From: Trypanosoma brucei
Taxonomy: Eukaryota
Reading direction: 5' to 3'
DNA length: 64,000 nucleotides
Assembly (NCBI GenBank): GCA_000002445.1
Contig: CP000071.1
Span: forward strand, 1,152,001 to 1,216,000
The notes beneath the pieces are model-generated. The model saw only the letters and a list, made by a program, of their open reading frames with translations. It had not been told where the DNA came from and ran no database searches. A program made the position numbers and the translations under genes. Shown in pieces: positions 44,773 to 64,000 of the stretch. How positions within the stretch are numbered: the first letter of the stretch is position 1; each line of letters begins with the position of its first letter.

Positions 44773-46413
44773 TCACTCGAACGCCGGCAACCGTACAAAG
44801 GCGAACTTTACGTTGTACGGGCTTACCACCATCAGGAAAAGAAGTACGATAGCTACCGCACCAAGAAGTGCGGAGGAAACGATACCACCGAGACACACAC
44901 CGTCGCATCTAGATAGACGTGAGTCATCTCCGCATACGGACTCAGCTAAGGTAATGTGCTGGCAATCATCCACACACTTCACCATGCAGAGCGGCAACAG
45001 GTGACTCCACTGCTCTTGCTGCGACACTTCTTCAAGGAACATCCGGGTCCACGTCCATGGAGACGAGAACAGCCGCTTCTGCGCACGTCCCTTGCTCATG
45101 CCGGGGGGGCCCCTGTAGTTGGTAATAAGGATGGTATTCTCAAGGTTCATCATTGCAGTAAGGTTTGTCCACGTCGAAACATTTGTACCACCAGGCACGT
45201 TAATCTCACCGGGTGGAAGGAACACAGCATAGAAGTCCTCTGTACGAAAGGCTACCTCCACATCTTTTATAATCCATGAATACAGGGCGTGCATGAGCCG
45301 ATCATTTCCCATTGGGAACGAGGAAGCGCGAAAGGCGGCCACAGCTGTGGATCTCGGAGGTGACCCGGGCGTTGGCGTGGGAGTCACCGGCGGTAGTGGT
45401 GTTGGTGAATAGCATTTCTCACGGACGGCGTACACAGCTGTTTCGGTTATGGCATAATATTCACATCCATTCACCTTAACCAGTGAGACAATCGGCCCAT
45501 GCATCCACTCCATCACCTTCTTAGGGCACAACAGACCGGTTTCAGAGGAATTCAATTCAAGGGACATGATATGGCTCTCGCCGTTAGGTTCACCGTAATA
45601 ATAGAGCTCATTCTCGTCCTCAGTTAACATCAAGGCATCGACATAATCGAGACAACTCATATTGGCGATGTCCCAGCTCTTCTTGTTACCATCCGAATCG
45701 CTGAGGCTATTCAGGTCCACCGCTGCAATCCACGAGGTCTCCTTCACGACATACATGAAATTCCGCTTCTTGCTTATTTGCATCACACCAGGTTGAAAAC
45801 CTCCAACAAGTTTCGCCGTTACATTGTTGGACACACTTATCTGCGAGTACATAATCCTTGAATTTCCAGTATCCGAAATAAATAAAACCGGTGCCCCGTC
45901 TTGTTCATGATAAATAATACTACTCGGTTTATCAACTTCATTGGCCGCAAACTTCGTCACCATTCCATCAGCATCTATCCGCTTCATGCAATCATTATCC
46001 CTGTCCGCCACGTAAATATCATTGTTTACACCAACAACAGAGGTGGGATGATTAAAACGAGCAACCTCTAAAGGACCAACTTCGTCACCACGCTTTGCAA
46101 GATTTCCCGCAACGGTATATATGCCAGTTTTGTTTACGAGTCGCACGGTGGATCCACCACCTCCAACATCACATAAAAGTAAAGGAAAGCTTTTGTTCTT
46201 AAAGAACCCACCCACCGCCTTGAATAAGCGACCAGTACCGTTTATGCCATCCGCCTGCCCACTACTACAGTTGATACAACTGTTGAAGAGGTTCACAATC
46301 ACCTTGGTGCCCACGGTTTGGTCTCCTATAACGGGACTCACAAAACCCAGCAGCAGCAACAACGCTGCCACGAGTGCGGCCAATGCTTCCCGTGATTCAG
46401 TCCTGCCACCCAT
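44773..46413 (-). CDS. NHL-repeat putative surface protein, paralog A (546 aa), with an N-terminal signal peptide and a C-terminal TM anchor
   Basis: Signal-like 'ALAALVAALLLLLGFVSPVIG'. NHL-repeat-like motifs 'IYVADRDNDCMKRIDADG' and 'LFISDTGNSRIMY'. Thr/Pro-rich linker 'PTPLPPVTPTPTPGSPP'. Hydrophobic C-terminus 'LLGAVAIVLLFLMVV'. Confidence 0.6.
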   Translation of the reverse strand: MGGRTESREALAALVAALLLLLGFVSPVIGDQTVGTKVIVNLFNSCINCSSGQADGINGTGRLFKAVGGFFKNKSFPLLLCDVGGGGSTVRLVNKTGIYTVAGNLAKRGDEVGPLEVARFNHPTSVVGVNNDIYVADRDNDCMKRIDADGMVTKFAANEVDKPSSIIYHEQDGAPVLFISDTGNSRIMYSQISVSNNVTAKLVGGFQPGVMQISKKRNFMYVVKETSWIAAVDLNSLSDSDGNKKSWDIANMSCLDYVDALMLTEDENELYYYGEPNGESHIMSLELNSSETGLLCPKKVMEWMHGPIVSLVKVNGCEYYAITETAVYAVREKCYSPTPLPPVTPTPTPGSPPRSTAVAAFRASSFPMGNDRLMHALYSWIIKDVEVAFRTEDFYAVFLPPGEINVPGGTNVSTWTNLTAMMNLENTILITNYRGPPGMSKGRAQKRLFSSPWTWTRMFLEEVSQQEQWSHLLPLCMVKCVDDCQHITLAESVCGDDSRLSRCDGVCLGGIVSSALLGAVAIVLLFLMVVSPYNVKFAFVRLPAFE

Positions 46414-46454
46414 TCCTGTTGCTCCACACTGTGATTCTATCAGTCAGTCGCTAT

Positions 46455-46486
46455 ATGTATATATATATATATATGTATATACCCCA
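46455..46486. repeat. (TA)n / (TATG) microsatellite in a spacer. The same microsatellite occurs at 56073-56104 in unit B.
   Basis: The sequence reads 'tatatgtatatatatatatatatgtatata'. Confidence 0.9.
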
Positions 46487-46783
46487 CGGATCTACCGTTG
46501 GGAAACAAACCTCAACCACAAAAGCGACCTATTAGCTCTGCTCAGTGAACTCACAACTCCCTTTAGTTGTCTTGTGATGATATTATTATTCACACATCAG
46601 AACAAAGAAAACAAAGGAAGCCAAAGGAAGACAAAAGAGGAGAAAGGAATCCGACACGTGAGAGAGAACAACAGTGGACGCAGACAGACGAAAGAAAAAC
46701 ACAGATGCATTGAAGCCACGCATTTAGGGTTGGGGAAACATATTCAGAGTTTGAAAGCCACGCTTCACTCCTTCGTATTTTGA

Positions 46784-47512
46784 CTAAGGCAACGCAGACC
46801 CGCCACCCGCCGGTCCCTTACCAATGTGGAGGAAATTGCAGTACTTCCCACGCCTGCAGCCCTCCCGAGTGAGGAAGAAAGTACATACCCTGCCATATGT
46901 TGCATTTCCCACGTGGCGCTCATTTCGACGGATCTGTGAGAGGCGGTAATCCTCAGAAGAGGATGCTGCACTGGTTGGGAGCAGTGGGGAACCTGCAGGG
47001 GATGGCAGTGGTGTAGCCATGTTCTGTTGATGAGCAGAGTTTCGACCACCCGCCACAACCCCTATTCCCTGTGACGGAGGGGCATGTGGTAGTGATGAGG
47101 ATGCGGTACCCCCCGCACATCCGTAAGGCGGTGTGGTGCCAGTAGCGCTGTTGTGTGGCAGGGGGCACTCCCTCATACGTCCTTCGGCATTAGCGTCCCG
47201 CGGACGACCTGAGGCTACTTGGAGTTCTATAGAGAAAGGGTCGGGGCAGTTAACGCCACAGTGTCCGTTTATGGCTGAATAGAATTCCATAAGTGCCTGA
47301 TGCGCTACGTGTGTCGGTGGGCGCAGCGAGAGGACGTTAGGTGTAGCAACGGACAACACTTTCTCCGATGATAGCGGTTGGTACGGCGAGTTCTGAATCT
47401 TGCGCACGAGGCACACTGCCGATGGGGCTGCATGCTCCACAATGTAGTTCACCATCGCTCTCGTTGTGAGTTGCTGGGTAGTTGACGTTGCTTCCGCAGA
47501 CGAGATGGTCAT
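46784..47512 (-). CDS. CCCH-type zinc-finger protein (duplicated unit, copy A)
   Basis: The C-terminal 'YGRVCTFFLTREGCRRGKYCNFLHIG' matches C-x8-C-x5-C-x3-H exactly. The N-terminal region is Ser/Pro/Ala-rich and low-complexity. Confidence 0.6.
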   Translation of the reverse strand: MTISSAEATSTTQQLTTRAMVNYIVEHAAPSAVCLVRKIQNSPYQPLSSEKVLSVATPNVLSLRPPTHVAHQALMEFYSAINGHCGVNCPDPFSIELQVASGRPRDANAEGRMRECPLPHNSATGTTPPYGCAGGTASSSLPHAPPSQGIGVVAGGRNSAHQQNMATPLPSPAGSPLLPTSAASSSEDYRLSQIRRNERHVGNATYGRVCTFFLTREGCRRGKYCNFLHIGKGPAGGGSALP

Positions 47513-47746
47513 TCAACTGCACGCGTATATACCCCCCACCCGTGCGGTTTTACAATGTTTCCGGGAGAAGAAATGAGGCTACCTTACCTTGGGATATTCA
47601 CCCACACAAACGGAAATTATCAACGATCCTACCTGCTTCGGGGTGGTTCTTCACATGCATCTGAACAAACCAACAACCAGTAGCAGCACAGCAACAATGT
47701 ACAACAAGTATACAATCACACCATCCCACTTACATAGATTCTCCTT

Positions 47747-48460
47747 TTAGTCTTCCTCATCCTCTTTCCCTTCGTAACACACCTCACTTTCCTCCACTTC
47801 CTCATCGCTACTTTCCGATTCAACACCCGAAAAACATTGCCGCCGCAGATTCAAAACCCCACGCGAGTAGTACGTTGCCATTCTTTCCACAGGAAGACTT
47901 AGGAAGTCCTGCACGCATGACGCTCTGTGCTCTTGCATGAATGCTATCACGGCCCACAGTTCAGCCATAGCCCAGATGTCACTACGGAGGGGACTCTTCT
48001 TTTCTGCTTCACCATCCTTTGCAGCGATCGCCACGTGGTCAGTCTTGCTATTATTGTTAGCATGTGACATAGCCCCAGCAAGACACATGTGCTCACCAAC
48101 GAACTTCACTAGCCTATAGTTATGATTGGGATGCACCGTAACGTTTCCAGTGTTGGGACATGGTAGCAATAGGATAGGGGTCTCCTCATCCGTTATGTCC
48201 TGCAGCAACACACCCGCTTGTCCAAGTAGTTGCCGAAGGTTCAGGGACGGTGCGGCAGAGGGCACCTGAGTTACCCTCCCATTAATGCGGATAACAAAGT
48301 GCGCCTCCTCATCGGTTCCACACTCCTTAGATCGGCCGCGCTTGCGAGTTCCCTTAACCACTTCTTGACCCGCCAATCGTGTCATGACCTCTACCAATAC
48401 CTTTAGTGATTGATCAACGGGGGAGAAAATCTTAGATAAGCACATATGGATGGCGCGCAA
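47747..48460 (-). CDS. Hypothetical small protein with an acidic, Ser-rich C-terminus (237 aa), copy A
   Basis: Minus-strand ORF with the C-terminal tail 'SESSDEEVEESEVCYEGKEDEED'. No motif recognised. Confidence 0.45.
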   Translation of the reverse strand: MRAIHMCLSKIFSPVDQSLKVLVEVMTRLAGQEVVKGTRKRGRSKECGTDEEAHFVIRINGRVTQVPSAAPSLNLRQLLGQAGVLLQDITDEETPILLLPCPNTGNVTVHPNHNYRLVKFVGEHMCLAGAMSHANNNSKTDHVAIAAKDGEAEKKSPLRSDIWAMAELWAVIAFMQEHRASCVQDFLSLPVERMATYYSRGVLNLRRQCFSGVESESSDEEVEESEVCYEGKEDEED

Positions 48461-48840
48461 CTGAAGTTGGGATGGCGGCTCGACTGATGCAACGTGACGA
48501 CCAATCTTATCCTAGTCAGAGTGACGTGGTGTAGGTATGGTGAGGCCACTGCAGTCGGAACGCTGAGAGTGTTCAGCACTAAAAACATTTCACGGGAGGA
48601 TCCCTAAACTGACACAGCAACTGTTCATATGTCCACTACACGATGAACCAGGGATACCATCGCGGAGGTGTAATTTAATCCACAGACACTGCGGGAGGTA
48701 TTGCTGGGGTTAGATCTCGAATAGTGCTACAGGCACTCAACAATTGCCGGACACAAAAGACTAATGGACACACACACCGCTTTCTTTGCCTAAAGTGCAG
48801 CCCTGGAAAGTTACAAATAAGGAATGACAGGTACCGTGAG

Positions 48841-50361
48841 TTAACCGGTGTCGTTGGTCGACACAGCCATTAGTTCCCTCAGGCGCTCTCTATATTCCTG
48901 TGCTACAACCCCATCCAGAGCAACTGTTATTCCGGCTGTGTTGCCACACTTCTGCTGCTGTTCTGCAAGCAGGATGCTGTAAACACTCTGCAATTCAGGA
49001 AGAGAACCCGCCGCCCGTAGACGCGCCACGTCTCGGTACGAGCGAAACATTCCTGCGGTACGTGCTTCACACACCACGCGTCTGCAAATATTTGGCAGAG
49101 CATCCAGTTCCCGCCCCCAGAACCGCGCGTCTGACCCAGCAGCGGCCACATTCCGAAAGAACTCCAAACCCGTCAGTCGCTCGATTTCTACCACAGGCAC
49201 CTGGTAAGCTGTGAGGGGCCGCTCCACGGCAATCGGTTCGTTCGGCATTAGGAAGGCAGCAGCTTCATGTGCCCCGTCCGCTCGCTCACCTAATATAACT
49301 TTGAAGAGGTGTGTGGGGACCGCAACGTCGCGCTTGCCCACAAGCTCATAGCAGACAATCTTCCGCAAGTGCACTGCTGCCTTGTCATTTCCACAGTGGC
49401 AGTGTTCTCCAGAAGCCAACACTCCGCTACTCACAGGTTTTACTGGAGACGGACATTGCGATGGTTCCGCCCACCGCCACGTGCGCACATCACCATCCAC
49501 GAGCCGCGGGTGGAAGACAGGTCCCGTCACTACCCACAATCCCCTCTCATAATACCGCCGCAACTTCCGTGTGAGGTTTTCCAACCGCAGCCAGTCGACA
49601 GCATTCATTGTCATGTCCTGTGGTACAGTGTTCGCATTCATGTTAAAGGTCTGAGCCAACTCAACAGTAGAGCTCTTGTGAAACTGTGCGGCAGCAAGGT
49701 GACCTCGGCTGAGGCCTCGTGAGTGCTGTCCCCTGCCACCCCCAATATAGTCACCGGGCTGCACGCGGAACAACTGAGGCACCGTCATGTCCGCAAAGAA
49801 CCTCATTCCATCTCGCTGGGCTTCCGCTGCGGAAGCGTTTACTAAGTCGTTATCAGCCGTGACCACTGAATCAGCAGCAGTGGTCCTGCCGGGGATGTAC
49901 TCCAACACCCAATTAGGGATACGACGCTCATAATTCAGACTAGAAACAAAGCCTTTGTAGTAGCGCAGGTGATCGTCGGACGGAAGCCCCTTGCTTGTAA
50001 GTCTTAGCACGAAAGGAGTAGTTTCCCCACCATCGTCGTTACACCTCTCCTTGGGGTATGCGGGCTGTGGGCATTGCACGTGTAACACCTCCGGACTTGT
50101 GCGCTCAGTCATCTGTTGATACGGAACAGGCGATGGATGGCATTTGTCCACACCAAACCAACCACCACGCTCCACAACCATTCCTATCGCGCCTCCCGCC
50201 AGCGCCGTACCAAGGAAGGCAAAGGCACGTCCCACGGAGGAAGCAGAAACCGCCATCGTATGCTTCTTCCTGCAGTTGATGCCACAAAGTGTAATAGAAG
50301 GAGTAAGTGGGATGACAGTGCACGTATCAGTGGGCATGAGCCGTACGGTGATGCGATGCAT
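48841..50361 (-). CDS. Endonuclease G-like DNA/RNA non-specific nuclease (DRGH/NUC family), copy A. The likely start is the internal Met at about 50256, with a mitochondrial-targeting/TM-like leader.
   Basis: 'HSRGLSRGHLAAAQFHKSSTVELAQTFNMNANTVPQDMTMNAVDWLRLENLTRKL' corresponds to the DRGH active-site motif, and the downstream Asn matches the metal-binding residue of beta-beta-alpha-Me nucleases such as EndoG and Serratia nuclease. The N-terminal 'MAVSASSVGRAFAFLGTALAGGAIGMVV' is hydrophobic and targeting-like. Confidence 0.65.
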   Translation of the reverse strand: MHRITVRLMPTDTCTVIPLTPSITLCGINCRKKHTMAVSASSVGRAFAFLGTALAGGAIGMVVERGGWFGVDKCHPSPVPYQQMTERTSPEVLHVQCPQPAYPKERCNDDGGETTPFVLRLTSKGLPSDDHLRYYKGFVSSLNYERRIPNWVLEYIPGRTTAADSVVTADNDLVNASAAEAQRDGMRFFADMTVPQLFRVQPGDYIGGGRGQHSRGLSRGHLAAAQFHKSSTVELAQTFNMNANTVPQDMTMNAVDWLRLENLTRKLRRYYERGLWVVTGPVFHPRLVDGDVRTWRWAEPSQCPSPVKPVSSGVLASGEHCHCGNDKAAVHLRKIVCYELVGKRDVAVPTHLFKVILGERADGAHEAAAFLMPNEPIAVERPLTAYQVPVVEIERLTGLEFFRNVAAAGSDARFWGRELDALPNICRRVVCEARTAGMFRSYRDVARLRAAGSLPELQSVYSILLAEQQQKCGNTAGITVALDGVVAQEYRERLRELMAVSTNDTG

Positions 50362-51332
50362 TTTACGTATCGCTATGAGGTCCTTCCGTCCACATGACGA
50401 ATACAGCTACAAATGATCTTGCACTACAGCGGGTGGTATTAACGATAAGGTTACATCAGCTTCAGCACACTTTGCTTCTGCTTTTAACCCTAGACTTATC
50501 TAATCCCTGCCGCCCACGCAGTTGCATAATTAAATAGAAGATAATAAGGGAGAATGAAAATGAATGAAGATGGGAAAATACGGTGAAGGAACACAAAGGG
50601 CACTATAGCAGTATAGGAGCACGCCACAAGAAGATGTGCTCGGACAAGCGGATGGATCACCAACAAGATAGGGGACCTTCGGAGGGTTTCACAGTTGGAG
50701 TCAGCATGGACTCACCTCAAAGGAAGACAAATAAGGGAAAAGAATAGAAAAAATAAAATTACGTTCCCCTGTGGCACAACGACGGCAAGCGTCGGGGTAC
50801 CTGAAGCTGTACAGGCGTGCTCGCTGTAGCGACCGCACAGTCTTGTATTGTGCACTGCTTCACTGTAACATGATAGTTCATACCCCAATATATGTTGCCT
50901 ACAACCTTGTCCCCTACACACTCAGATGACACCGCACCAGTGGCATGCGGAACCGTAGTGGTAGGAGGCGGCAACCCAGGAACCTCCAGCAGCTGAAAAT
51001 ATAATTTTGATGGAGAGATCTCTAGATAGAGCCGGCGTCTATGTATAAACATGCCGGCTGCACTGAGGCCGGCGTAGGGTAACCCCAGAGCCGATGCCAA
51101 CAACAACAAAAAAAAGAAATAACGACCGATCAATAACGATAAGAATGATAATGGTGGAAATACATGTACATGTACGGGAGCACATGAATAACTAGTGAAT
51201 AGCGAAAATAGCGATCAGTTGAGTTACTGAGACCTTTCCACCCTGCTCTCACTCAGTTACTGCAAGCACGTGTTGCATGGGAGTGGAAGGACAGTAAGAC
51301 ATTGCGCATGTTTGTGTGATAGTCTAGGAAAT

Positions 51333-53591
51333 TCACTGCTCGACCCTTTCTTTGTTGCCGTAGGCAGATGCGTAATCTTGCTCATCCTCATCCAGTGTAC
51401 TCACGAATTTCGGACGAGCGGGTGCGACTACGGCGGCAAGGCGTCTGCGTTTCGATGTGAACACGACAGCTAACACGATGAGGACGGCTACGATAAGTGC
51501 ACACACTACCGCGATTATGATTAGGCACACGCGACCGCACTTTGGCGCCTTCTCTGTGGTGGGTCTGACGGTATCGTTGTTCAGGTGGTCGTTCAAGTCT
51601 TGCCAGTCAATCTCACCGACGCATTCCGACACATCGAACGTATAGTTTCCAGGAATGAATACTTCGTACAGACTCATCTCAACGTAGGGTGGCTGGTAAA
51701 AAAGCGATACCGTGCGGTTCGTTATCGTGGACTGGCATACTCCAGTTACATTGCTATCAAGTGCCGTGGCAATGGTGGTTCGGCTATGGTCACCAACCTC
51801 TTCCCTACGTGCCATGCTTCTCCCGGTGCTACGTTCTTCACATTTCTTTATTTGATTCATCACCTCGTCGTGTATGTACCAGCGTACTTCCTGTTCCTCA
51901 TCCGGAGTCAGTGATGAGAAGTTGAACGGGGGATTGGAGAAGGTTACATCGACGTGAGTGTCCGAGCTCCGCAAGTATTTGATGAATGAGTGGGCAGTCT
52001 CAGTGAGGTTCGCATCTGACAGCAAGTCGTGGGTCACGGTGTTGTTGAACGAGGCTGGCATCAGTAGCTTCACTGTTGTGATATTTTCAGCGTCACTGCT
52101 CTCAGCCTTAAGGGGCATGTCCGCGTAGATGAGCGTGAAATTGAGTACCTCACCCGCCTCCTTTGCGAGCTTCCGACGGAGAGCATCAAGACTCAGGCGA
52201 TTGCAATATGGGACCATTGTGCTGTCCATGTACACCTGTTCGTCAGTAAGGTTGTAGTACTCATCCGCAGCCTCCTTTGTGTGTTCATAGTTACTCTCGT
52301 GCAAGGCCTGTTCGGTTTTCTCGTCATCAAAGTCCGGCTGTTGCACACCGGCGGTGAAATTCGTTAGCCATGTTGTGGAGTCCACATGTACGGAAGAAGA
52401 GGCAACAATACTTTCGGTGGTGCCGAGCGCAGTGTTGATGTCCTCAGTGAGGTTCCCCACAATCCACTCCATGATGTCTTTATCAGGGTATCCAACTGGT
52501 AACGGGCGCCCGGGGAAGAGACCCTGCACGTACACTGGTGGAAGTGTCACAGAACGCAGGACACTTTTCTTTTCCGATGTAACATACATTTCGTACTCCG
52601 TCACCACGAGCAATCGGGTTATCTCACAAAGAAGCGTGTCATCTCCCTCAGTATTGGGAAGACACGAGTTCGTGCTTCCTCCGGCGAATCGTTTCGTCGT
52701 AAGTTTATTACCGTCGGTCGAAACGCGGTGTAACTCATTTTGTGTTGCCGCGAGTAGATCACCAGACCGTGTGCTGGTAATGTCCACATATTCACCATCC
52801 ACCTCTGCGATCTTGTGGCCCTGCAGGTCGAACCAGCAGATGGTGCCCTGCTTCGCGGGGCCGCGAGCAACAACAAAGATGCCCTGCTGCGTGGCGGCAA
52901 TGCCGATGGGACCATAGATACTGCAGTTTGCACTCAGAGCCACGTGGCTGTGACATGCGATTGGGTCACCGTCGCTTCCCACTTCACACGTCCATACAGT
53001 ATTTGTGTTTTGCTCTGTCAGATACAGGTGGTTCCCGTACAAAGCTACGCCTGTCAGCGAGCCATTGCGGACTACGTCATGAGAGAAGACACCGCTGTCC
53101 TTGAAATACTTCACCTCACCCATACTCTCAACAAAGTAAACAAATGTGGAGCCACCAACTGTCCACTGCACGCAGGCGCGCGGTTTGTCAACTTTGACAC
53201 TACGCGACCCGCTTTTCTGATCCTCGTCTGTCTCCCATGCCGTGATTGTAGTGGTCTCACGGTTCTTGCGCGAGAAGGCACGGAAGCGGTCAACTGTCCC
53301 CAAAAGGATCTCGTCACTATTCCTGCCTCTGCACATAGCGTGGGGTGACGATAATTCCGACATGCCAGGGAACCCGTCCTTATCACCAATATGACCGTAC
53401 TTGCCAGCGACGGTGGTCACATGGCGCTTCAGTTCAATGGGAGCGGCTCCACTTCTCACTACAATCGTTGCGACGGTGGCCACGAGCAAAAGCATCTGGG
53501 ATACGTAACCTAAGTGCACGGTTCCTACTACTTCCCTCACATTCATTGTTTCCACCTCACAGTTGGTTTGTTTCCACAACGGCATGCGCAA
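51333..53591 (-). CDS. NHL/beta-propeller-like type-I transmembrane glycoprotein (752 aa), copy A
   Basis: Hydrophobic N-terminal segment 'MLLLVATVATIVV'. NHL-like segments 'GVALYGNHLYLTEQNTNTVW' and 'GIFVVARGPAKQGTICWFD'. Many N-x-S/T sequons. Single TM 'CLIIIAVVCALIVAVLIVLAVVF' followed by a basic stop-transfer 'TSKRRR' and a short acidic tail. Confidence 0.6.
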   Translation of the reverse strand: MRMPLWKQTNCEVETMNVREVVGTVHLGYVSQMLLLVATVATIVVRSGAAPIELKRHVTTVAGKYGHIGDKDGFPGMSELSSPHAMCRGRNSDEILLGTVDRFRAFSRKNRETTTITAWETDEDQKSGSRSVKVDKPRACVQWTVGGSTFVYFVESMGEVKYFKDSGVFSHDVVRNGSLTGVALYGNHLYLTEQNTNTVWTCEVGSDGDPIACHSHVALSANCSIYGPIGIAATQQGIFVVARGPAKQGTICWFDLQGHKIAEVDGEYVDITSTRSGDLLAATQNELHRVSTDGNKLTTKRFAGGSTNSCLPNTEGDDTLLCEITRLLVVTEYEMYVTSEKKSVLRSVTLPPVYVQGLFPGRPLPVGYPDKDIMEWIVGNLTEDINTALGTTESIVASSSVHVDSTTWLTNFTAGVQQPDFDDEKTEQALHESNYEHTKEAADEYYNLTDEQVYMDSTMVPYCNRLSLDALRRKLAKEAGEVLNFTLIYADMPLKAESSDAENITTVKLLMPASFNNTVTHDLLSDANLTETAHSFIKYLRSSDTHVDVTFSNPPFNFSSLTPDEEQEVRWYIHDEVMNQIKKCEERSTGRSMARREEVGDHSRTTIATALDSNVTGVCQSTITNRTVSLFYQPPYVEMSLYEVFIPGNYTFDVSECVGEIDWQDLNDHLNNDTVRPTTEKAPKCGRVCLIIIAVVCALIVAVLIVLAVVFTSKRRRLAAVVAPARPKFVSTLDEDEQDYASAYGNKERVEQ

Positions 53592-54257
53592 TCGAGAAAT
53601 TACAGTGGGGTCACTAGCCTCTGCCTTACCTAACGCGAAAGGATCCAGTGTTCTGTTAACTTCCTCTAATTACCTGCCCTCAGAGAGAGGCCGGCTACAA
53701 TTCCTTATATGGCACCCCAGAAGCGCGGCACAAGAGTCGCGGGCAACGAAGACGCAAAAAAGAAGGAAAGGGATAGACAAAGAATAGGTACGCGAAGAGA
53801 CTTTTGGTCATTGGAACGCCAAAACTCGTATGTAATGTATACAGGTGACTGTTCACGCAGAACCTGCAAATGTTGCTTCCAACTCTACGGTCTCTTCTAA
53901 AACGATGCAGCTGCAAAATCAAAAGTGCCTTTTAAAACATATTGCGTAGCAAATTTTTTTTTCTTTGGGGGGGGGAGGTAGTGGAGGGAAAACATTTTAA
54001 ATGGGTATACCTATTCTATCACTTACGTAATCACACGCTTTTTCTTACTGTCATAAATACGTATTTTCTGCACAAAAAGATTTGTTTCCTCACCCAAAAT
54101 GAGCAAGGTGTAGCCATCACATGACGACCAGAAACGCACACCCACCCAACTCTAACCTCATGCGAAGTAGTCGCAGAGGTTGCCTCTCACTATTCCCCAC
54201 CGGCTGTCACCTCCATTACGTATCCATGAGTGACTCCGAAGTCACTTGCAGCTCCAA

Positions 54258-56401: not shown

Positions 56402-57130
56402 CTAAGGCAACGCAGACCCGCCACCCGCCGGTCCCTTACCAATGTGGAGGAAATTGCAGTACTTCCCACGCCTGCAGCCCTCCCGAGTGAGGAAGAAAGT
56501 ACATACCCTGCCATATGTTGCATTTCCCACGTGGCGCTCATTTCGACGGATCTGTGAGAGGCGGTAATCCTCAGAAGAGGATGCTGCACTGGTTGGGAGC
56601 AGTGGGGAACCTGCAGGGGATGGCAGTGGTGTAGCCATGTTCTGTTGATGAGCAGAGTTTCGACCACCCGCCACAACCCCTATTCCCTGTGACGGAGGGG
56701 CATGTGGTAGTGATGAGGATGCGGTACCCCCCGCACATCCGTAAGGCGGTGTGGTGCCAGTAGCGCTGTTGTGTGGCAGGGGGCACTCCCTCATACGTCC
56801 TTCGGCATTAGCGTCCCGCGGACGACCTGAGGCTACTTGGAGTTCTATAGAGAAGGGGTCGGGGCAGTTAACGCCACAGTGTCCGTTTATGGCTGAATAG
56901 AATTCCATAAGTGCCTGATGCGCTACGTGTGTCGGTGGGCGCAGCGAGAGGACGTTAGGTGTAGCAACGGACAACACTTTCTCCGATGATAGCGGTTGGT
57001 ACGGCGAGTTCTGAATCTTGCGCACGAGGCACACTGCCGATGGGGCTGCATGCTCCACAATGTAGTTCACCATCGCTCTCGTTGTGAGTTGCTGGGTAGT
57101 TGACGTTGCTTCCGCAGACGAGATGGTCAT
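56402..57130 (-). CDS. CCCH-type zinc-finger protein, copy B
   Basis: Translation is identical to 46784..47512. Confidence 0.6.
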   Translation of the reverse strand: MTISSAEATSTTQQLTTRAMVNYIVEHAAPSAVCLVRKIQNSPYQPLSSEKVLSVATPNVLSLRPPTHVAHQALMEFYSAINGHCGVNCPDPFSIELQVASGRPRDANAEGRMRECPLPHNSATGTTPPYGCAGGTASSSLPHAPPSQGIGVVAGGRNSAHQQNMATPLPSPAGSPLLPTSAASSSEDYRLSQIRRNERHVGNATYGRVCTFFLTREGCRRGKYCNFLHIGKGPAGGGSALP

Positions 57131-57364: not shown

Positions 57365-58078
57365 TTAGTCTTCCTCATCCTCTTTCCCTTCGTAACACAC
57401 CTCACTTTCCTCCACTTCCTCATCGCTACTTTCCGATTCAACACCCGAAAAACATTGCCGCCGCAGATTCAAAACCCCACGCGAGTAGTACGTTGCCATT
57501 CTTTCCACAGGAAGACTTAGGAAGTCCTGCACGCATGACGCTCTGTGCTCTTGCATGAATGCTATCACGGCCCACAGTTCAGCCATAGCCCAGATGTCAC
57601 TACGGAGGGGACTCTTCTTTTCTGCTTCACCATCCTTTGCAGCGATCGCCACGTGGTCAGTCTTGCTATTATTGTTAGCATGTGACATAGCCCCAGCAAG
57701 ACACATGTGCTCACCAACGAACTTCACTAGCCTATAGTTATGATTGGGATGCACCGTAACGTTTCCAGTGTTGGGACATGGTAGCAATAGGATAGGGGTC
57801 TCCTCATCCGTTATGTCCTGCAGCAACACACCCGCTTGTCCAAGTAGTTGCCGAAGGTTCAGGGACGGTGCGGCAGAGGGCACCTGAGTTACCCTCCCAT
57901 TAATGCGGATAACAAAGTGCGCCTCCTCATCGGTTCCACACTCCTTAGATCGGCCGCGCTTGCGAGTTCCCTTAACCACTTCTTGACCCGCCAATCGTGT
58001 CATGACCTCTACCAATACCTTTAGTGATTGATCAACGGGGGAGAAAATCTTAGATAAGCACATATGGATGGCGCGCAA
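57365..58078 (-). CDS. Hypothetical small acidic-tail protein, copy B
   Basis: Identical to 47747..48460. Confidence 0.45.
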   Translation of the reverse strand: MRAIHMCLSKIFSPVDQSLKVLVEVMTRLAGQEVVKGTRKRGRSKECGTDEEAHFVIRINGRVTQVPSAAPSLNLRQLLGQAGVLLQDITDEETPILLLPCPNTGNVTVHPNHNYRLVKFVGEHMCLAGAMSHANNNSKTDHVAIAAKDGEAEKKSPLRSDIWAMAELWAVIAFMQEHRASCVQDFLSLPVERMATYYSRGVLNLRRQCFSGVESESSDEEVEESEVCYEGKEDEED

Positions 58079-58458
58079 CTGAAGTTGGGATGGCGGCTCG
58101 ACTGATGCAACGTGACGACCAATCTTATCCTAGTCAGAGTGACGTGGTGTAGGTATGGTGAGGCCACTGCAGTCGGAACGCTGAGAGTGTTCAGCACTAA
58201 AAACATTTCACGGGAGGATCCCTAAACTGACACAGCAACTGTTCATATGTCCACTACACGATGAACCAGGGATACCATCGCGGAGGTGTAATTTAATCCA
58301 CAGACACTGCGGGAGGTATTGCTGGGGTTAGATCTCGAATAGTGCTACAGGCACTCAACAATTGCCGGACACAAAAGACTAATGGACACACACACCGCTT
58401 TCTTTGCCTAAAGTGCAGCCCTGGAAAGTTACAAATAAGGAATGACAGGTACCGTGAG

Positions 58459-59979
58459 TTAACCGGTGTCGTTGGTCGACACAACCATTAGTTCCCTCAG
58501 GCGCTCTCTATATTCCTGTGCTACAACCCCATCCAGAGCAACTGTTATTCCGGCTGTGTTGCCACACTTCTGCTGCTGTTCTGCAAGCAGGATGCTGTAA
58601 ACACTCTGCAATTCAGGAAGAGAACCCGCCGCCCGTAGACGCGCCACGTCTCGGTACGAGCGAAACATTCCTGCGGTACGTGCTTCACACACCACGCGTC
58701 TGCAAATATTTGGCAGAGCATCCAGTTCCCGCCCCCAGAACCGCGCGTCTGACCCAGCAGCGGCCACATTCCGAAAGAACTCCAAACCCGTCAGTCGCTC
58801 GATTTCTACCACAGGCACCTGGTAAGCTGTGAGGGGCCGCTCCACGGCAATCGGTTCGTTCGGCATTAGGAAGGCAGCAGCTTCATGTGCCCCGTCCGCT
58901 CGCTCACCTAATATAACTTTGAAGAGGTGTGTGGGGACCGCAACGTCGCGCTTGCCCACAAGCTCATAGCAGACAATCTTCCGCAAGTGCACTGCTGCCT
59001 TGTCATTTCCACAGTGGCAGTGTTCTCCAGAAGCCAACACTCCGCTACTCACAGGTTTTACTGGAGACGGACATTGCGATGGTTCCGCCCACCGCCACGT
59101 GCGCACATCACCATCCACGAGCCGCGGGTGGAAGACAGGTCCCGTCACTACCCACAATCCCCTCTCATAATACCGCCGCAACTTCCGTGTGAGGTTTTCC
59201 AACCGCAGCCAGTCGACAGCATTCATTGTCATGTCCTGTGGTACAGTGTTCGCATTCATGTTAAAGGTCTGAGCCAACTCAACAGTAGAGCTCTTGTGAA
59301 ACTGTGCGGCAGCAAGGTGACCTCGGCTGAGGCCTCGTGAGTGCTGTCCCCTGCCACCCCCAATATAGTCACCGGGCTGCACGCGGAACAACTGAGGCAC
59401 CGTCATGTCCGCAAAGAACCTCATTCCATCTCGCTGGGCTTCCGCTGCGGAAGCGTTTACTAAGTCGTTATCAGCCGTGACCACTGAATCAGCAGCAGTG
59501 GTCCTGCCGGGGATGTACTCCAACACCCAATTAGGGATACGACGCTCATAATTCAGACTAGAAACAAAGCCTTTGTAGTAGCGCAGGTGATCGTCGGACG
59601 GAAGCCCCTTGCTTGTAAGTCTTAGCACGAAAGGAGTAGTTTCCCCACCATCGTCGTTACACCTCTCCTTGGGGTATGCGGGCTGTGGGCATTGCACGTG
59701 TAACACCTCCGGACTTGTGCGCTCAGTCATCTGTTGATACGGAACAGGCGATGGATGGCATTTGTCCACACCAAACCAACCACCACGCTCCACAACCATT
59801 CCTATCGCGCCTCCCGCCAGCGCCGTACCAAGGAAGGCAAAGGCACGTCCCACGGAGGAAGCAGAAACCGCCATCGTATGCTTCTTCCTGCAGTTGATGC
59901 CACAAAGTGTAATAGAAGGAGTAAGTGGGATGACAGTGCACGTATCAGTGGGCATGAGCCGTACGGTGATGCGATGCAT
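58459..59979 (-). CDS. Endonuclease G-like nuclease, copy B
   Basis: Identical to 48841..50361 except for one residue (A vs V near the C-terminus). Confidence 0.65.
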   Translation of the reverse strand: MHRITVRLMPTDTCTVIPLTPSITLCGINCRKKHTMAVSASSVGRAFAFLGTALAGGAIGMVVERGGWFGVDKCHPSPVPYQQMTERTSPEVLHVQCPQPAYPKERCNDDGGETTPFVLRLTSKGLPSDDHLRYYKGFVSSLNYERRIPNWVLEYIPGRTTAADSVVTADNDLVNASAAEAQRDGMRFFADMTVPQLFRVQPGDYIGGGRGQHSRGLSRGHLAAAQFHKSSTVELAQTFNMNANTVPQDMTMNAVDWLRLENLTRKLRRYYERGLWVVTGPVFHPRLVDGDVRTWRWAEPSQCPSPVKPVSSGVLASGEHCHCGNDKAAVHLRKIVCYELVGKRDVAVPTHLFKVILGERADGAHEAAAFLMPNEPIAVERPLTAYQVPVVEIERLTGLEFFRNVAAAGSDARFWGRELDALPNICRRVVCEARTAGMFRSYRDVARLRAAGSLPELQSVYSILLAEQQQKCGNTAGITVALDGVVAQEYRERLRELMVVSTNDTG

Positions 59980-60950: not shown

Positions 60951-63209
60951 TCACTGCTCGACCCTTTCTTTGTTGCCGTAGGCAGATGCGTAATCTTGCT
61001 CATCCTCATCCAGTGTACTCACGAATTTCGGACGAGCGGGTGCGACTACGGCGGCAAGGCGTCTGCGTTTCGATGTGAACACGACAGCTAACACGATGAG
61101 GACGGCTACGATAAGTGCACACACTACCGCGATTATGATTAGGCACACGCGACCGCACTTTGGCGCCTTCTCTGTGGTGGGTCTGACGGTATCGTTGTTC
61201 AGGTGGTCGTTCAAGTCTTGCCAGTCAATCTCACCGACGCATTCCGACACATCGAACGTATAGTTTCCAGGAATGAATACTTCGTACAGACTCATCTCAA
61301 CGTAGGGTGGCTGGTAAAAAAGCGATACCGTGCGGTTCGTTATCGTGGACTGGCATACTCCAGTTACATTGCTATCAAGTGCCGTGGCAATGGTGGTTCG
61401 GCTATGGTCACCAACCTCTTCCCTACGTGCCATGCTTCTCCCGGTGCTACGTTCTTCACATTTCTTTATTTGATTCATCACCTCGTCGTGTATGTACCAG
61501 CGTACTTCCTGTTCCTCATCCGGAGTCAGTGATGAGAAGTTGAACGGGGGATTGGAGAAGGTTACATCGACGTGAGTGTCCGAGCTCCGCAAGTATTTGA
61601 TGAATGAGTGGGCAGTCTCAGTGAGGTTCGCATCTGACAGCAAGTCGTGGGTCACGGTGTTGTTGAACGAGGCTGGCATCAGTAGCTTCACTGTTGTGAT
61701 ATTTTCAGCGTCACTGCTCTCAGCCTTAAGGGGCATGTCCGCGTAGATGAGCGTGAAATTGAGTACCTCACCCGCCTCCTTTGCGAGCTTCCGACGGAGA
61801 GCATCAAGACTCAGGCGATTGCAATATGGGACCATTGTGCTGTCCATGTACACCTGTTCGTCAGTAAGGTTGTAGTACTCATCCGCAGCCTCCTTTGTGT
61901 GTTCATAGTTACTCTCGTGCAAGGCCTGTTCGGTTTTCTCGTCATCAAAGTCCGGCTGTTGCACACCGGCGGTGAAATTCGTTAGCCATGTTGTGGAGTC
62001 CACATGTACGGAAGAAGAGGCAACAATACTTTCGGTGGTGCCGAGCGCAGTGTTGATGTCCTCAGTGAGGTTCCCCACAATCCACTCCATGATGTCTTTA
62101 TCAGGGTATCCAACTGGTAACGGGCGCCCGGGGAAGAGACCCTGCACGTACACTGGTGGAAGTGTCACAGAACGCAGGACACTTTTCTTTTCCGATGTAA
62201 CATACATTTCGTACTCCGTCACCACGAGCAATCGGGTTATCTCACAAAGAAGCGTGTCATCTCCCTCAGTATTGGGAAGACACGAGTTCGTGCTTCCTCC
62301 GGCGAATCGTTTCGTCGTAAGTTTATTACCGTCGGTCGAAACGCGGTGTAACTCATTTTGTGTTGCCGCGAGTAGATCACCAGACCGTGTGCTGGTAATG
62401 TCCACATATTCACCATCCACCTCTGCGATCTTGTGGCCCTGCAGGTCGAACCAGCAGATGGTGCCCTGCTTCGCGGGGCCGCGAGCAACAACAAAGATGC
62501 CCTGCTGCGTGGCGGCAATGCCGATGGGACCATAGATACTGCAGTTTGCACTCAGAGCCACGTGGCTGTGACATGCGATTGGGTCACCGTCGCTTCCCAC
62601 TTCACACGTCCATACAGTATTTGTGTTTTGCTCTGTCAGATACAGGTGGTTCCCGTACAAAGCTACGCCTGTCAGCGAGCCATTGCGGACTACGTCATGA
62701 GAGAAGACACCGCTGTCCTTGAAATACTTCACCTCACCCATACTCTCAACAAAGTAAACAAATGTGGAGCCACCAACTGTCCACTGCACGCAGGCGCGCG
62801 GTTTGTCAACTTTGACACTACGCGACCCGCTTTTCTGATCCTCGTCTGTCTCCCATGCCGTGATTGTAGTGGTCTCACGGTTCTTGCGCGAGAAGGCACG
62901 GAAGCGGTCAACTGTCCCCAAAAGGATCTCGTCACTATTCCTGCCTCTGCACATAGCGTGGGGTGACGATAATTCCGACATGCCAGGGAACCCGTCCTTA
63001 TCACCAATATGACCGTACTTGCCAGCGACGGTGGTCACATGGCGCTTCAGTTCAATGGGAGCGGCTCCACTTCTCACTACAATCGTTGCGACGGTGGCCA
63101 CGAGCAAAAGCATCTGGGATACGTAACCTAAGTGCACGGTTCCTACTACTTCCCTCACATTCATTGTTTCCACCTCACAGTTGGTTTGTTTCCACAACGG
63201 CATGCGCAA
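60951..63209 (-). CDS. NHL/beta-propeller-like type-I TM glycoprotein (752 aa), copy B
   Basis: Identical to 51333..53591. Confidence 0.6.
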   Translation of the reverse strand: MRMPLWKQTNCEVETMNVREVVGTVHLGYVSQMLLLVATVATIVVRSGAAPIELKRHVTTVAGKYGHIGDKDGFPGMSELSSPHAMCRGRNSDEILLGTVDRFRAFSRKNRETTTITAWETDEDQKSGSRSVKVDKPRACVQWTVGGSTFVYFVESMGEVKYFKDSGVFSHDVVRNGSLTGVALYGNHLYLTEQNTNTVWTCEVGSDGDPIACHSHVALSANCSIYGPIGIAATQQGIFVVARGPAKQGTICWFDLQGHKIAEVDGEYVDITSTRSGDLLAATQNELHRVSTDGNKLTTKRFAGGSTNSCLPNTEGDDTLLCEITRLLVVTEYEMYVTSEKKSVLRSVTLPPVYVQGLFPGRPLPVGYPDKDIMEWIVGNLTEDINTALGTTESIVASSSVHVDSTTWLTNFTAGVQQPDFDDEKTEQALHESNYEHTKEAADEYYNLTDEQVYMDSTMVPYCNRLSLDALRRKLAKEAGEVLNFTLIYADMPLKAESSDAENITTVKLLMPASFNNTVTHDLLSDANLTETAHSFIKYLRSSDTHVDVTFSNPPFNFSSLTPDEEQEVRWYIHDEVMNQIKKCEERSTGRSMARREEVGDHSRTTIATALDSNVTGVCQSTITNRTVSLFYQPPYVEMSLYEVFIPGNYTFDVSECVGEIDWQDLNDHLNNDTVRPTTEKAPKCGRVCLIIIAVVCALIVAVLIVLAVVFTSKRRRLAAVVAPARPKFVSTLDEDEQDYASAYGNKERVEQ

Positions 63210-63875
63210 TCGAGAAATTACAGTGGGGTCACTAGCCTCTGCCTTACCTAACGCGAAAGGATCCAGTGTTCTGTTAACTTCCTCTAATTACCTGCCCTCA
63301 GAGAGAGGCCGGCTACAATTCCTTATATGGCACCCCAGAAGCGCGGCACAAGAGTCGCGGGCAACGAAGACGCAAAAAAGAAGGAAAGGGATAGACAAAG
63401 AATAGGTACGCGAAGAGACTTTTGGTCATTGGAACGCCAAAACTCGTATGTAATGTATACAGGTGACTGTTCACGCAGAACCTGCAAATGTTGCTTCCAA
63501 CTCTACGGTCTCTTCTAAAACGATGCAGCTGCAAAATCAAAAGTGCCTTTTAAAACATATTGCGTAGCAAATTTTTTTTTCTTTGGGGGGGGGAGGTAGT
63601 GGAGGGAAAACATTTTAAATGGGTATACCTATTCTATCACTTACGTAATCACACGCTTTTTCTTACTGTCATAAATACGTATTTTCTGCACAAAAAGATT
63701 TGTTTCCTCACCCAAAATGAGCAAGGTGTAGCCATCACATGACGACCAGAAACGCACACCCACCCAACTCTAACCTCATGCGAAGTAGTCGCAGAGGTTG
63801 CCTCTCACTATTCCCCACCGGCTGTCACCTCCATTACGTATCCATGAGTGACTCCGAAGTCACTTGCAGCTCCAA

Positions 63876-64000
63876 CTACTCCAGCGCCGGCAGTCGCACA
63901 AAAGTAGATCTTGCATTCGGTGGACTTGCTATGAGCAACCACAGCAGCATGATGGCAAGAAGGCCCAAGAGCACTGAGGAGGCGATTCCTGCAGCACGCA
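63876..64000 (-). CDS. 3' end (C-terminal codons) of a third NHL-repeat surface-protein paralog, truncated by the window edge
   Basis: 63876-64000 is identical to 54258-54382, which is the 3' end of the 590-aa paralog B gene. Confidence 0.5.
   Translation of the reverse strand, partial: RAAGIASSVLLGLLAIMLLWLLIASPPNARSTFVRLPALE

What the first reader, a model, noticed from the sequence alone, without database searches (positions are those of the whole stretch)
44773..64000. About 9.6-kb five-gene module (NHL surface protein, CCCH zinc finger, acidic protein, EndoG-like nuclease, NHL-TM glycoprotein) tandemly duplicated at near-100% identity
Two full units are present (period 9618 bp). A third starts at the window edge and a decayed partial unit lies upstream. 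Coding and non-coding DNA are both almost base-identical (three single-base differences noted across about 8 kb). This implies either a very recent duplication or ongoing gene conversion/concerted evolution. It is unusual for such homogenisation to cover a heterogeneous module of a surface-protein gene, an RNA-binding CCCH factor and a mitochondrial-type nuclease. Copy number here may be polymorphic between strains and is at risk of mis-assembly.
Basis: seen in the sequence. Interest (0 to 1): 0.6.

Follow-up and report, generated by a model that had tools for sequence, protein, structure and literature searches.

The report
Trypanosoma brucei FLA1/FLA2 tandem gene array
This is the already annotated flagellum-attachment (FLA1/FLA2/FLA1BP) locus on chromosome 8 of Trypanosoma brucei, a head-to-tail repeat of a five-gene block whose copies are kept almost identical by recombination except for the FLA gene bodies: an ordinary case of a well-described trypanosome phenomenon.

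Summary
The period is 9617/9618 bp. Near-identity covers 8,108 bp: window 46275-54382 matches 55892-64000 with 5 differences (4 substitutions, 1 indel). It ends abruptly at nucleotide 139/140 of the fifth gene.

That fifth gene is FLA1 (546 aa) in one unit and FLA2 (590 aa) in the other. The two are only 59% identical and have unrelated 3' flanks.

The window is T. brucei brucei TREU927 chromosome 8. Its genes are:
- FLA1, 100% identical to XP_847232
- ZC3H24 and ZC3H25
- a 232-aa protein annotated as CITFA-5a
- endonuclease G (Tb927.8.4040/4090), two copies differing by the published Ala/Val change
- FLA1BP (Tb927.8.4050/4100)
- FLA2

T. vivax carries the same five-gene block once; in T. cruzi and T. 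theileri only the FLA-FLA1BP-EndoG core was found, also once. Copies cluster by strain: 1-5 differences within a genome against 13-31 per 1.25-2.9 kb between TREU927 and the gambiense/equiperdum assemblies. That is concerted evolution, as described in general for T. brucei tandem arrays.

Three other assemblies break at gaps or differ in gene order at this locus, so copy number and order are not secure.

Verdict: already known, low interest.

The parts
42971..44224 (-). Truncated repeat piece 'R'. It holds the last 93 nt of FLA1BP, the 971-nt FLA1BP-EndoG spacer and the first 190 nt of EndoG. Unique DNA lies on both sides.
   Evidence: 99.5-99.6% identical to 50171-51425 and 59789-61043. Both junctions are abrupt. 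EndoG aa 1-63 are retained and nothing is detectable beyond. It shares 12 strain-specific sites with copies A and B.
44225..44772 (-). FLA1 3' flank (the presumed 3' UTR region), single copy
   Evidence: No similarity to the FLA2 3' flank or to anything else in the window.
44773..46413 (-). FLA1 (flagellum adhesion glycoprotein 1, Tb927.8.4010): 546 aa, 59.5 kDa, with a signal peptide and a C-terminal transmembrane segment
   Evidence: 100% identity over full length to XP_847232.1/AAZ13166.1 of T. b. brucei TREU927. Mass matches Table 1 of PMC4827413. Hydrophobic segments at 7-34 and 503-540.
46275..54382 (-). Near-identical block, copy A (8,108 nt). It spans the first 139 nt of the FLA coding sequence, ZC3H24, the 232-aa gene, EndoG, FLA1BP, all spacers and the last 125 nt of FLA2.
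   Evidence: 5 differences from copy B.
46784..47512 (-). ZC3H24 (Tb927.8.4020), a 242-aa CCCH zinc-finger protein
   Evidence: Exact match to AAZ13167/13172/13177. Weak Pfam zf-CCCH hit. C-x8-C-x5-C-x3-H is visible in the translation. Gene names from PMC4055773.
47747..48445 (-). 232-aa acidic protein (pI 5.25), named 'class I transcription factor A, subunit 5a' in the T. equiperdum annotation
   Evidence: Exact match to AAZ13168/13173. No Pfam hit.
48841..50361 (-). Endonuclease G copy with Ala499 (Tb927.8.4040, KP56)
   Evidence: Pfam Endonuclease_NS, 3e-47. Exact match to AAZ13169.1. The Ala/Val difference from the other copy matches bioRxiv 10.1101/2024.04.22.590512.
51333..53585 (-). FLA1BP (FLA1-binding protein, Tb927.8.4050): 750 aa, 83.1 kDa
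   Evidence: Exact match to AAZ13170/13175. Size, two identical genes and two hydrophobic segments are as described in PMC3546053.
54258..56030 (-). FLA2 (Tb927.8.4060): 590 aa, 64.4 kDa, with a 44-aa proline-rich insert relative to FLA1
   Evidence: 59% identical to FLA1, with the first 46 aa identical. Pfam NHL 28.8 bits, above the cut-off. Mass matches PMC4827413.
55892..64000 (-). Near-identical block, copy B, cut by the window edge
56402..57130 (-). ZC3H25 (Tb927.8.4070), protein identical to ZC3H24
57365..58063 (-). Second copy of the 232-aa protein gene, product identical
58459..59979 (-). Endonuclease G copy with Val499 (Tb927.8.4090)
   Evidence: One amino-acid difference from copy A. 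A second TREU927 EndoG record, AAZ13174.1, sits in the same 90% cluster; assigning it to this copy follows the accession order and was not checked by exact look-up.
60951..63203 (-). Second FLA1BP gene (Tb927.8.4100), product identical
63876..64000 (-). 3' end of a third FLA gene of the FLA2 type (Tb927.8.4110, called FLA3 or FLA2-2), cut by the window edge
   Evidence: Identical to 54258-54382. The gene list in PMC4827413 includes Tb927.8.4110.

Best explanation
The region is the FLA1/FLA2/FLA1BP locus of Trypanosoma brucei brucei TREU927 chromosome 8 (Tb927.8.4010 to about .4130).

Origin. An ancestral block, [232-aa protein - ZC3H - FLA - FLA1BP - EndoG], was tandemly multiplied in the T. 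brucei/T. congolense lineage. T. vivax carries the whole block once; in T. cruzi and T. theileri the FLA-FLA1BP-EndoG core is present once. All genes lie on one strand, so they are presumably transcribed as part of one polycistronic unit (inferred). Arbitrary gene blocks can therefore be duplicated without needing promoters. FLA and FLA1BP are interacting flagellum-attachment partners. ZC3H, the 232-aa gene and EndoG are most simply passengers (inferred).

Architecture. The array is a repeated backbone (R - EndoG - 232-aa gene - ZC3H - first 139 nt of FLA, about 5.15 kb) alternating with one of two cassettes:
- FLA1 body plus a unique 548-nt 3' flank
- FLA2 body plus its own 3' flank plus FLA1BP

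Homogenisation. Backbone copies and FLA2-type cassettes are kept alike by homologous recombination (unequal crossing-over and/or gene conversion). This is shown by copies clustering by strain. The precise mechanism is inferred.

Boundary. Homogenisation stops where FLA1 and FLA2 have diverged, at the same nucleotide in two strains. This leaves a procyclic-form isoform (FLA1) and a bloodstream-form isoform (FLA2), each with its own 3' flank. The stage specificity comes from the literature. The idea that divergence and/or selection blocks conversion is inferred.
For: Identity:
- FLA1 is 100% identical to XP_847232, on a 2,481,190-bp contig.
- Exact matches exist for ZC3H24, EndoG, FLA1BP and the 232-aa protein.
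- Masses of 59.5, 64.4 and 83.1 kDa match PMC4827413.
- The EndoG pair differs by one Ala/Val, and one SNP lies 476 nt upstream, within the roughly 500-bp upstream region used to tell the copies apart in bioRxiv 10.1101/2024.04.22.590512.

Structure.

Single-copy state:
- T. vivax carries 232-like, CCCH, FLA, FLA1BP and EndoG once.
- T. cruzi and T. theileri carry FLA, FLA1BP and EndoG once.

Old FLA1/FLA2 split:
- They are 63% identical on ungapped columns, against 59-64% to the T. congolense homologues.

Concerted evolution:
- Within-genome differences are 0-5 in each of four segments of 1.25-2.9 kb. TREU927 against DAL972 or IVM-t1 gives 13-31 in the same segments.
- The single-copy FLA1 body, FLA1 flank and spacer in the same locus differ by 1.2-1.5% between strains.
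- All five A/B differences are private to one TREU927 copy.
- Within R, 12 sites are fixed in all three TREU927 copies against all five IVM/DAL copies. There is also mosaic sharing: 2 sites in A+B only and 1 site in A+relic only.
- The boundary sits at FLA coding nt 139/140 in both TREU927 and DAL972.
Against: - Assemblers can make repeat copies look more alike than they are, and the number of assembled units can be arbitrary (stated in PMC2854126). I had no reads with which to check.
- IVM-t1 and DAL972 are close to each other, so clustering by genome is weak between those two.
- Gene order differs between TREU927, DAL972 and IVM-t1, and two of those have gaps in the array.
- No direct evidence here separates gene conversion from unequal crossing-over.
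- Stage-specific expression and the FLA1-FLA1BP interaction are taken from papers, not tested here.
Confidence: 0.85

Rival explanations
1. A very recent one-off duplication, with no continuing homogenisation. The copies are alike simply because they have had no time to diverge.
For: There are only 5 differences in 8.1 kb, and all are private to one copy. The FLA2/FLA3 pair may indeed be a recent addition, but the third unit is outside the window. DAL972 has one unit fewer as assembled.
Against: - The near-identical DNA abuts two FLA genes that are only 59% identical, a split as old as the T. brucei/T. congolense divergence. At least one later recombination event ending inside FLA is therefore required.
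- The same junctions (FLA1 flank/R, R/unique-ABC1, and the nt-139/140 boundary) occur in DAL972.
- T. congolense also has a truncated EndoG next to ABC1.
- Yet all copies carry strain-specific substitutions.
Confidence: 0.12
2. Assembly artefact: a single unit, or fewer units, was wrongly replicated by the assembler, or the copies were made identical by consensus calling.
For: DAL972 and IVM-t1 carry 100-N gaps in the array and disagree on order. The OVI scaffold collapses the array and breaks at 10-N gaps at or near repeat edges. ZC3H sits on a 1.6-kb contig in OVI. PMC2854126 warns that the assembled repeat number can be arbitrary.
Against: - Junction logic needs at least two backbone copies. 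ZC3H joins both an FLA1 body and an FLA2 body. R joins both EndoG and the unique DNA leading to ABC1. R is preceded both by FLA1BP and by the FLA1 flank.
- Five copy-specific variants exist. An independent laboratory used the upstream variant and reports the Ala/Val difference.
- Two other assemblies each hold two or more units.
- The exact count (a third unit) and the order remain unverified.
Confidence: 0.08
3. The five genes form a functionally coupled module that is co-amplified and homogenised because selection acts on the set. For example, it might keep the doses of FLA, FLA1BP, the RNA-binding ZC3H protein and EndoG in step.
For: The order 232-like, CCCH, FLA, FLA1BP, EndoG is conserved in T. 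vivax, and FLA, FLA1BP, EndoG in T. cruzi and T. theileri. FLA1 and FLA1BP are physical partners (PMC4827413).
Against: - Conserved order is the norm in trypanosomatid polycistronic units and needs no functional link.
- EndoG is a kinetoplast-associated nuclease. ZC3H24-26 behave as generic mRNA activators in a tethering screen. Neither has a known tie to flagellum attachment.
- In the TREU927 arrangement the FLA1 unit has lost FLA1BP altogether. Strict co-dosage is therefore not maintained.
Confidence: 0.05

Closest known systems
T. brucei FLA1/FLA2/FLA3-FLA1BP locus, Tb927.8.4010-4110 (PMC4827413, PMC3546053, PMC12831198)
   Same: It is this locus. FLA1 has an identical sequence. There are two identical 750-aa FLA1BP genes, an FLA2 of 64 kDa, and a third FLA gene at the window edge.
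   Different: Nothing differs. The papers I read treat the genes one at a time. I did not find in them the backbone/cassette layout, the truncated R piece or the nt-139/140 boundary.
Tandem gene arrays of T. brucei evolving in concert, including 'mixed dynamics' arrays (Jackson 2007, PMC1855330; T. b. gambiense genome paper, PMC2854126)
   Same: Head-to-tail repeats in one transcription unit. Coding and intergenic DNA are both homogenised. One divergent copy (FLA1) escapes because its flanks and body break the repeat structure. Copy number differs between subspecies assemblies.
   Different: This array is not in the tables shown by my searches of those papers for 'flagell', 'endonuclease' and 'Tb927.8'; PMC2854126 says the arrays it reuses were defined as having more than 3 copies. 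Jackson reports that T. brucei and T. b. gambiense copies are usually interspersed. Here TREU927 copies form their own group against DAL972/IVM-t1.
Endonuclease G pair Tb927.8.4040 (KP56) / Tb927.8.4090 (bioRxiv 10.1101/2024.04.22.590512)
   Same: Two ORFs differ by one nucleotide (Ala to Val), and one SNP lies within the roughly 500-bp upstream region that paper used to tell the copies apart. Both differences are seen here, at 48866 and 50837.
   Different: That paper calls it a 'more recent duplication'. The data here indicate that the identity is maintained by homogenisation of an older array.
T. cruzi GP72 / TcFLA-1BP locus (PMC10675206)
   Same: Orthologous FLA (GP72) - FLA1BP - EndoG order.
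   Different: Single copy in the two T. cruzi assemblies examined.

Membership tests
T. brucei TREU927 chromosome 8 FLA locus (Tb927.8.4010-4110) | FLA1 protein sequence identical to the reference record | tested here: met
   100% identity and 100% coverage to XP_847232.1/AAZ13166.1, on a contig of 2,481,190 bp.
T. brucei TREU927 chromosome 8 FLA locus (Tb927.8.4010-4110) | Two identical 750-aa, 83-kDa FLA1BP genes with N- and C-terminal hydrophobic segments | tested here: met
   Both window copies are identical. Exact match to AAZ13170/13175. 83.1 kDa; hydrophobic segments at ORF residues 25-52 and 681-716, against 19-43 and 688-710 in PMC3546053.
T. brucei TREU927 chromosome 8 FLA locus (Tb927.8.4010-4110) | EndoG pair differing by one Ala/Val codon | tested here: met
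   A499V is the only difference, as described in bioRxiv 10.1101/2024.04.22.590512.
Tandem array under concerted evolution | Paralogues within a genome are more alike than orthologous copies between genomes | tested here: met
   TREU927 A against B gives 1-2 differences per segment. TREU927 against DAL972 or IVM-t1 gives 13-31. Single-copy neighbours differ by 1.2-1.5%. Caveat: these are assembled sequences, not reads.
Tandem array under concerted evolution | Mosaic sharing of variants among copies (conversion tracts) | tested here: inconclusive
   In R, 2 sites are shared by A+B only and 1 by A+relic only. The pattern fits, but it rests on three sites.
Tandem array under concerted evolution | Copy number and order verified by spanning reads or read depth | not testable with these tools
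   No read data were available. The assemblies disagree.
NHL-repeat beta-propeller proteins (Pfam PF01436) | NHL repeat match above the Pfam gathering score | tested here: inconclusive
   FLA2 scores 28.8 bits against a cut-off of 20 (met). FLA1 scores 17.6 bits (below). FLA1BP has no NHL hit even at E<=10.
NHL-repeat beta-propeller proteins (Pfam PF01436) | Six-bladed beta-propeller fold in the FLA1BP ectodomain | tested here: inconclusive
   The model has mean pLDDT 45.7, with 62-85 only for residues about 130-300. It has some 24 strands between 84 and 356. Foldseek hits are propellers of both NHL (PknD, Brat, TRIM71) and WD40 types.
DNA/RNA non-specific endonuclease, EndoG type (Pfam PF01223) | Full-length domain match and the RGH ... 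N..PQ active-site motif | tested here: met
   161 bits, profile positions 7-222 of 223. 'SRGHLAAAQF' and 'NANTVPQ' are visible in the translation. Nuclease activity was not tested.
CCCH zinc-finger proteins (Pfam PF00642) | C-x8-C-x5-C-x3-H motif | tested here: met
   'CTFFLTREGCRRGKYCNFLH' lies near the C-terminus. The Pfam score is 18.2, just under the 20.5 cut-off. Named ZC3H24/25/26 in PMC4055773.

The most novel reading that the evidence does not exclude
The position of the FLA1 cassette within the array really differs between T. brucei strains. It is next to ABC1 in TREU927 and next to the 415-aa gene in DAL972, and it is absent from the assembled part of the T. equiperdum IVM-t1 array. 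This would be because whole FLA1 or FLA2+FLA1BP cassettes are swapped by gene conversion between identical flanks. The array would then act as a dosage switchboard for stage-specific flagellum-attachment isoforms. A tsetse-independent lineage might also have lost the insect-stage FLA1.
Probability: 0.15. Interest if true: 0.4.

Novelty: already known. Interest (0 to 1): 0.15.

Why it matters
- Practical: FLA1BP, EndoG (KP56), ZC3H24-26 and the 232-aa gene each exist in two or three near-identical copies. Knock-outs, tagging and RNAi must take this into account, and short-read mapping will be ambiguous.
- Assembly: four T. brucei-group assemblies disagree on order and copy number at this locus. 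It is a useful test case for long-read re-assembly.
- Biology: this is a clean textbook example of a homogenisation tract that stops at one nucleotide position inside a coding sequence. That boundary preserves two life-stage-specific adhesion isoforms beside otherwise identical DNA.

None of this changes current understanding.

Tried and rejected
- Looked for remains of EndoG beyond nt 190 in the 639 nt between the relic and ABC1, and for homology between the FLA1 and FLA2 3' flanks. Nothing was found.
- Looked for the TREU927 contig itself with the look-up of encoding contigs. It is not on record.
- Tested whether T. equiperdum has lost FLA1. The OVI scaffold holds an FLA1-specific 5' piece at 100% identity, so loss is not general. 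IVM-t1 is undecidable because of a scaffold gap.
- Tested whether FLA1 and FLA1BP are detectable paralogues by BLASTP. They are not (E=0.41).
- Tried to settle the NHL nature of FLA1BP with Pfam at E<=10 and with a structure model. Only four sequences were available, the model was poor, and the hits were generic propellers.
- Tried to read the CITFA papers (PMC2099468, PMC3536272) to confirm the CITFA-5a name for the 232-aa protein. They are not held. The name rests on one genome annotation.
- Rejected ORF 50759-51133 (124 aa), and its copies at 43558-43932 and 60377-60751, as a gene. It is a mechanical TTG ORF in the FLA1BP-EndoG spacer, it was not searched against any database, and no gene is called at the matching position in L002/L003.
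Full report
**1. The observation**

A repeat search and a self-BLAST of the window show a direct repeat with spacing 9617/9618 bp. BLAST joins 45961-54382 to 55577-64000 at 99.03%, but this average hides two regimes.

- In 250-nt windows, identity is 99.6-100% from about 46470 to the window edge (92% in the window that spans the boundary). It is only 19-78% across 44383-46218.
- A base-by-base alignment puts the switch at window 46275/46274. From 46275 to 54382 (8,108 nt) there are only five differences from 55892-64000:
  - a 1-nt indel at 46606
  - 47237, synonymous, in the CCCH gene
  - 47728, intergenic
  - 48866, EndoG Ala499Val
  - 50837, intergenic
- A third piece, 42971-44224, matches 50171-51425 and 59789-61043 at 99.5-99.6% and ends abruptly on both sides.
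- The last 125 nt of the window repeat the 3' end of the 590-aa gene.

So the repeat is real and far beyond chance.

**2. What the genes are**

All ORFs lie on the minus strand.

- The 546-aa ORF is 100% identical over its full length to the 'flagellum-adhesion glycoprotein' XP_847232.1 of T. brucei brucei TREU927, on a contig of 2,481,190 bp. The window is therefore TREU927 chromosome 8 and the gene is FLA1.
- Exact look-ups identify the others:
  - The 242-aa CCCH protein is AAZ13167/13172/13177, three identical copies, named ZC3H24/25/26 for Tb927.8.4020/4070/4120 in PMC4055773.
  - The 232-aa acidic protein is AAZ13168/13173, called 'class I transcription factor A, subunit 5a' in the T. 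equiperdum annotation.
  - The 506-aa nuclease with Ala499 is AAZ13169. A second TREU927 record, AAZ13174, sits in the same cluster.
  - The 750-aa membrane protein is AAZ13170/13175.
- Predicted masses of 59.5, 64.4 and 83.1 kDa match those listed for FLA1, FLA2/FLA3 and FLA1BP (Tb927.8.4010, 4060/4110, 4050/4100) in PMC4827413.
- PMC3546053 already states that Tb927.8.4050/4100 are two identical genes for a 750-residue, 83-kDa protein with two hydrophobic segments.
- A 2024 preprint states that Tb927.8.4040 (KP56) and Tb927.8.4090 differ by one nucleotide, giving Ala to Val, and that an SNP in the roughly 500-bp upstream region distinguishes them. The differences at 48866 and at 50837 (476 nt upstream of the ORF) fit that description.
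- FLA1 and FLA2 are 59% identical. Their first 46 residues are identical, and FLA2 carries a 44-aa proline-rich insert.
- Pfam supports Endonuclease_NS strongly. It supports NHL for FLA2, and supports CCCH and NHL-in-FLA1 only weakly.
- FLA1BP gives no NHL hit. A four-sequence AlphaFold model was poor (pLDDT 45.7) and matched beta-propellers of several kinds. Its NHL nature rests on the literature.

**3. Architecture**

Read in the direction of transcription (decreasing coordinates), the window holds:

- the FLA2-type gene, cut at the window edge
- FLA1BP, then R, EndoG, the 232-aa gene, ZC3H25
- FLA2
- FLA1BP, then R, EndoG, the 232-aa gene, ZC3H24
- FLA1, followed by 548 nt of unique DNA
- the truncated R, followed by 639 nt of unique DNA
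- ABC1 kinase

R is the 1,254-nt piece made of the last 93 nt of FLA1BP, the 971-nt spacer and the first 190 nt of EndoG.

It is simplest to see the array as a repeated backbone alternating with one of two cassettes.

- The backbone runs from R to FLA coding nt 139 and is about 5.15 kb.
- One cassette is the FLA1 body with its own 3' flank.
- The other cassette is the FLA2 body, its 3' flank and FLA1BP.

The two FLA 3' flanks share no similarity.

**4. Ancestral state**

- T. vivax carries 232-like, CCCH, FLA, FLA1BP and EndoG once, in that order.
- T. cruzi and T. theileri carry FLA, FLA1BP and EndoG once.
- A T. congolense contig reads CCCH, FLA, FLA1BP, an EndoG fragment (aa 13-158, 41% identity), then ABC1. 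T. congolense also has two FLA paralogues.
- The multiplication therefore happened after the split from T. vivax. A truncated EndoG next to ABC1 is old.
- In a neighbour-joining tree, FLA1 and FLA2 of T. brucei separate at about the same depth as T. brucei from T. congolense: 63% identity against 59-64%, with 88% bootstrap for T. brucei monophyly.

**5. Recent duplication or homogenisation?**

Loci were recovered from T. b. gambiense DAL972 and T. equiperdum IVM-t1.

- In four segments covering the backbone and FLA1BP, copies within a genome differ at 0-5 sites. TREU927 copies differ from DAL972 or IVM-t1 copies at 13-31 sites per 1.25-2.9 kb.
- The 5' flank of FLA1 in TREU927 differs from the 5' flank of FLA2 in TREU927 at 2 sites plus one indel. 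It differs from the 5' flank of the orthologous FLA1 in DAL972 at 23 sites.
- Single-copy parts of the same locus (FLA1 body, FLA1 flank, relic-ABC1 spacer) differ by 1.2-1.5% between these strains. Paralogue divergence within TREU927 is 0.06%, roughly a twentieth of the strain divergence.
- All five A/B differences are private to one TREU927 copy.
- Within R, 12 sites are fixed in all three TREU927 copies against all five IVM/DAL copies. Two derived sites are shared by A and B only. One is shared by A and the truncated relic only.
- The identity boundary is at FLA coding nt 139/140 in DAL972 as well.

Taken together with the age of the FLA1/FLA2 split, this is concerted evolution with a fixed boundary, not a one-off recent duplication. 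Whether the process is gene conversion, unequal crossing-over or both is inferred, not shown.

**6. Assembly reliability**

- DAL972 places FLA1 next to the 415-aa gene and FLA2-FLA1BP next to ABC1, with a 100-N gap between them.
- IVM-t1 shows two FLA2-type units and then a 100-N gap, after which the scaffold resumes about 22 kb further on.
- The T. equiperdum OVI scaffold is a collapsed version whose 10-N gaps fall at or near the edges of the repeated DNA. Its ZC3H gene sits on a separate 1.6-kb contig.
- Junction logic demands at least two backbone copies. A single-unit artefact is therefore excluded. The number of units and the position of FLA1 cannot be verified without long reads.
- PMC2854126 warns in general that assembled repeat numbers can be arbitrary.

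**7. Comparison with what is known**

- The genes, their duplication and their near-identity are already in the literature, gene by gene (PMC4827413, PMC3546053, PMC4055773, the KP56 preprint).
- Concerted evolution of T. brucei tandem arrays is described in PMC1855330. This includes 'mixed dynamics' arrays, in which a divergent copy escapes because the repeat structure is broken.
- This array did not turn up in my term searches of that paper or of the gambiense genome paper.
- The fine structure given here is a modest addition: the backbone/cassette layout, the truncated R, the conserved boundary and the clustering by strain.

**8. Verdict**

The feature is already known and ordinary for this organism. 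Interest is 0.15.

Noticed in passing
window 509-3378 (ORF 105-3722, minus strand): 28 copies of a 102-nt (34-aa) repeat at 97% identity lie inside a 1,205-aa ORF with a C-terminal SRP40_C domain, i.e. a Nopp140/SRP40-like protein.
   Followed up: partly
window 4583-12033: A second tandem array of three units of about 2.56-2.76 kb. Each unit has an ORF of 316, 338 or 383 aa (5696-6646, 8256-9272, 10882-12033), and two of them carry a 27-nt (9-aa) internal repeat of 7 and 12 copies. No Pfam hit.
   Followed up: partly
window 48841-50361 and 58459-59979: The annotated 506-aa EndoG ORF has about 35 N-terminal residues that do not align to the T. vivax, T. cruzi or T. theileri homologues, where alignments start at aa 35-40. 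The true start may be Met36.
   Followed up: no
L013 (T. congolense CAEQ01000640.1) 7353-7790: A decayed EndoG fragment (aa 13-158, 41% identity) lies between FLA1BP and ABC1. It parallels the truncated EndoG piece next to ABC1 in T. brucei but has a different extent.
   Followed up: partly
L002 19687-19786 (T. equiperdum IVM-t1 CM010679.1): After a 100-N gap inside the R repeat, the scaffold resumes at the equivalent of window ~20742. About 22 kb (ABC1, the CAF1A-like gene and others) and any FLA1 gene are therefore absent from this stretch of the scaffold.
   Followed up: partly
L014 (T. equiperdum OVI CZPT02000864.1): OVI is 99.9-100% identical to TREU927 across this locus, whereas T. equiperdum IVM-t1 groups with T. 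b. gambiense DAL972 at about 98.5-99%. The two 'T. equiperdum' assemblies carry different haplotypes of the array.
   Followed up: no
window 46276-46783 versus L003/L002: The ZC3H-FLA spacer is the most strain-divergent part of the backbone (about 93% identity with indels between TREU927 and DAL972/IVM-t1), yet it is near-identical (a single 1-nt indel) between the TREU927 copies.
   Followed up: no
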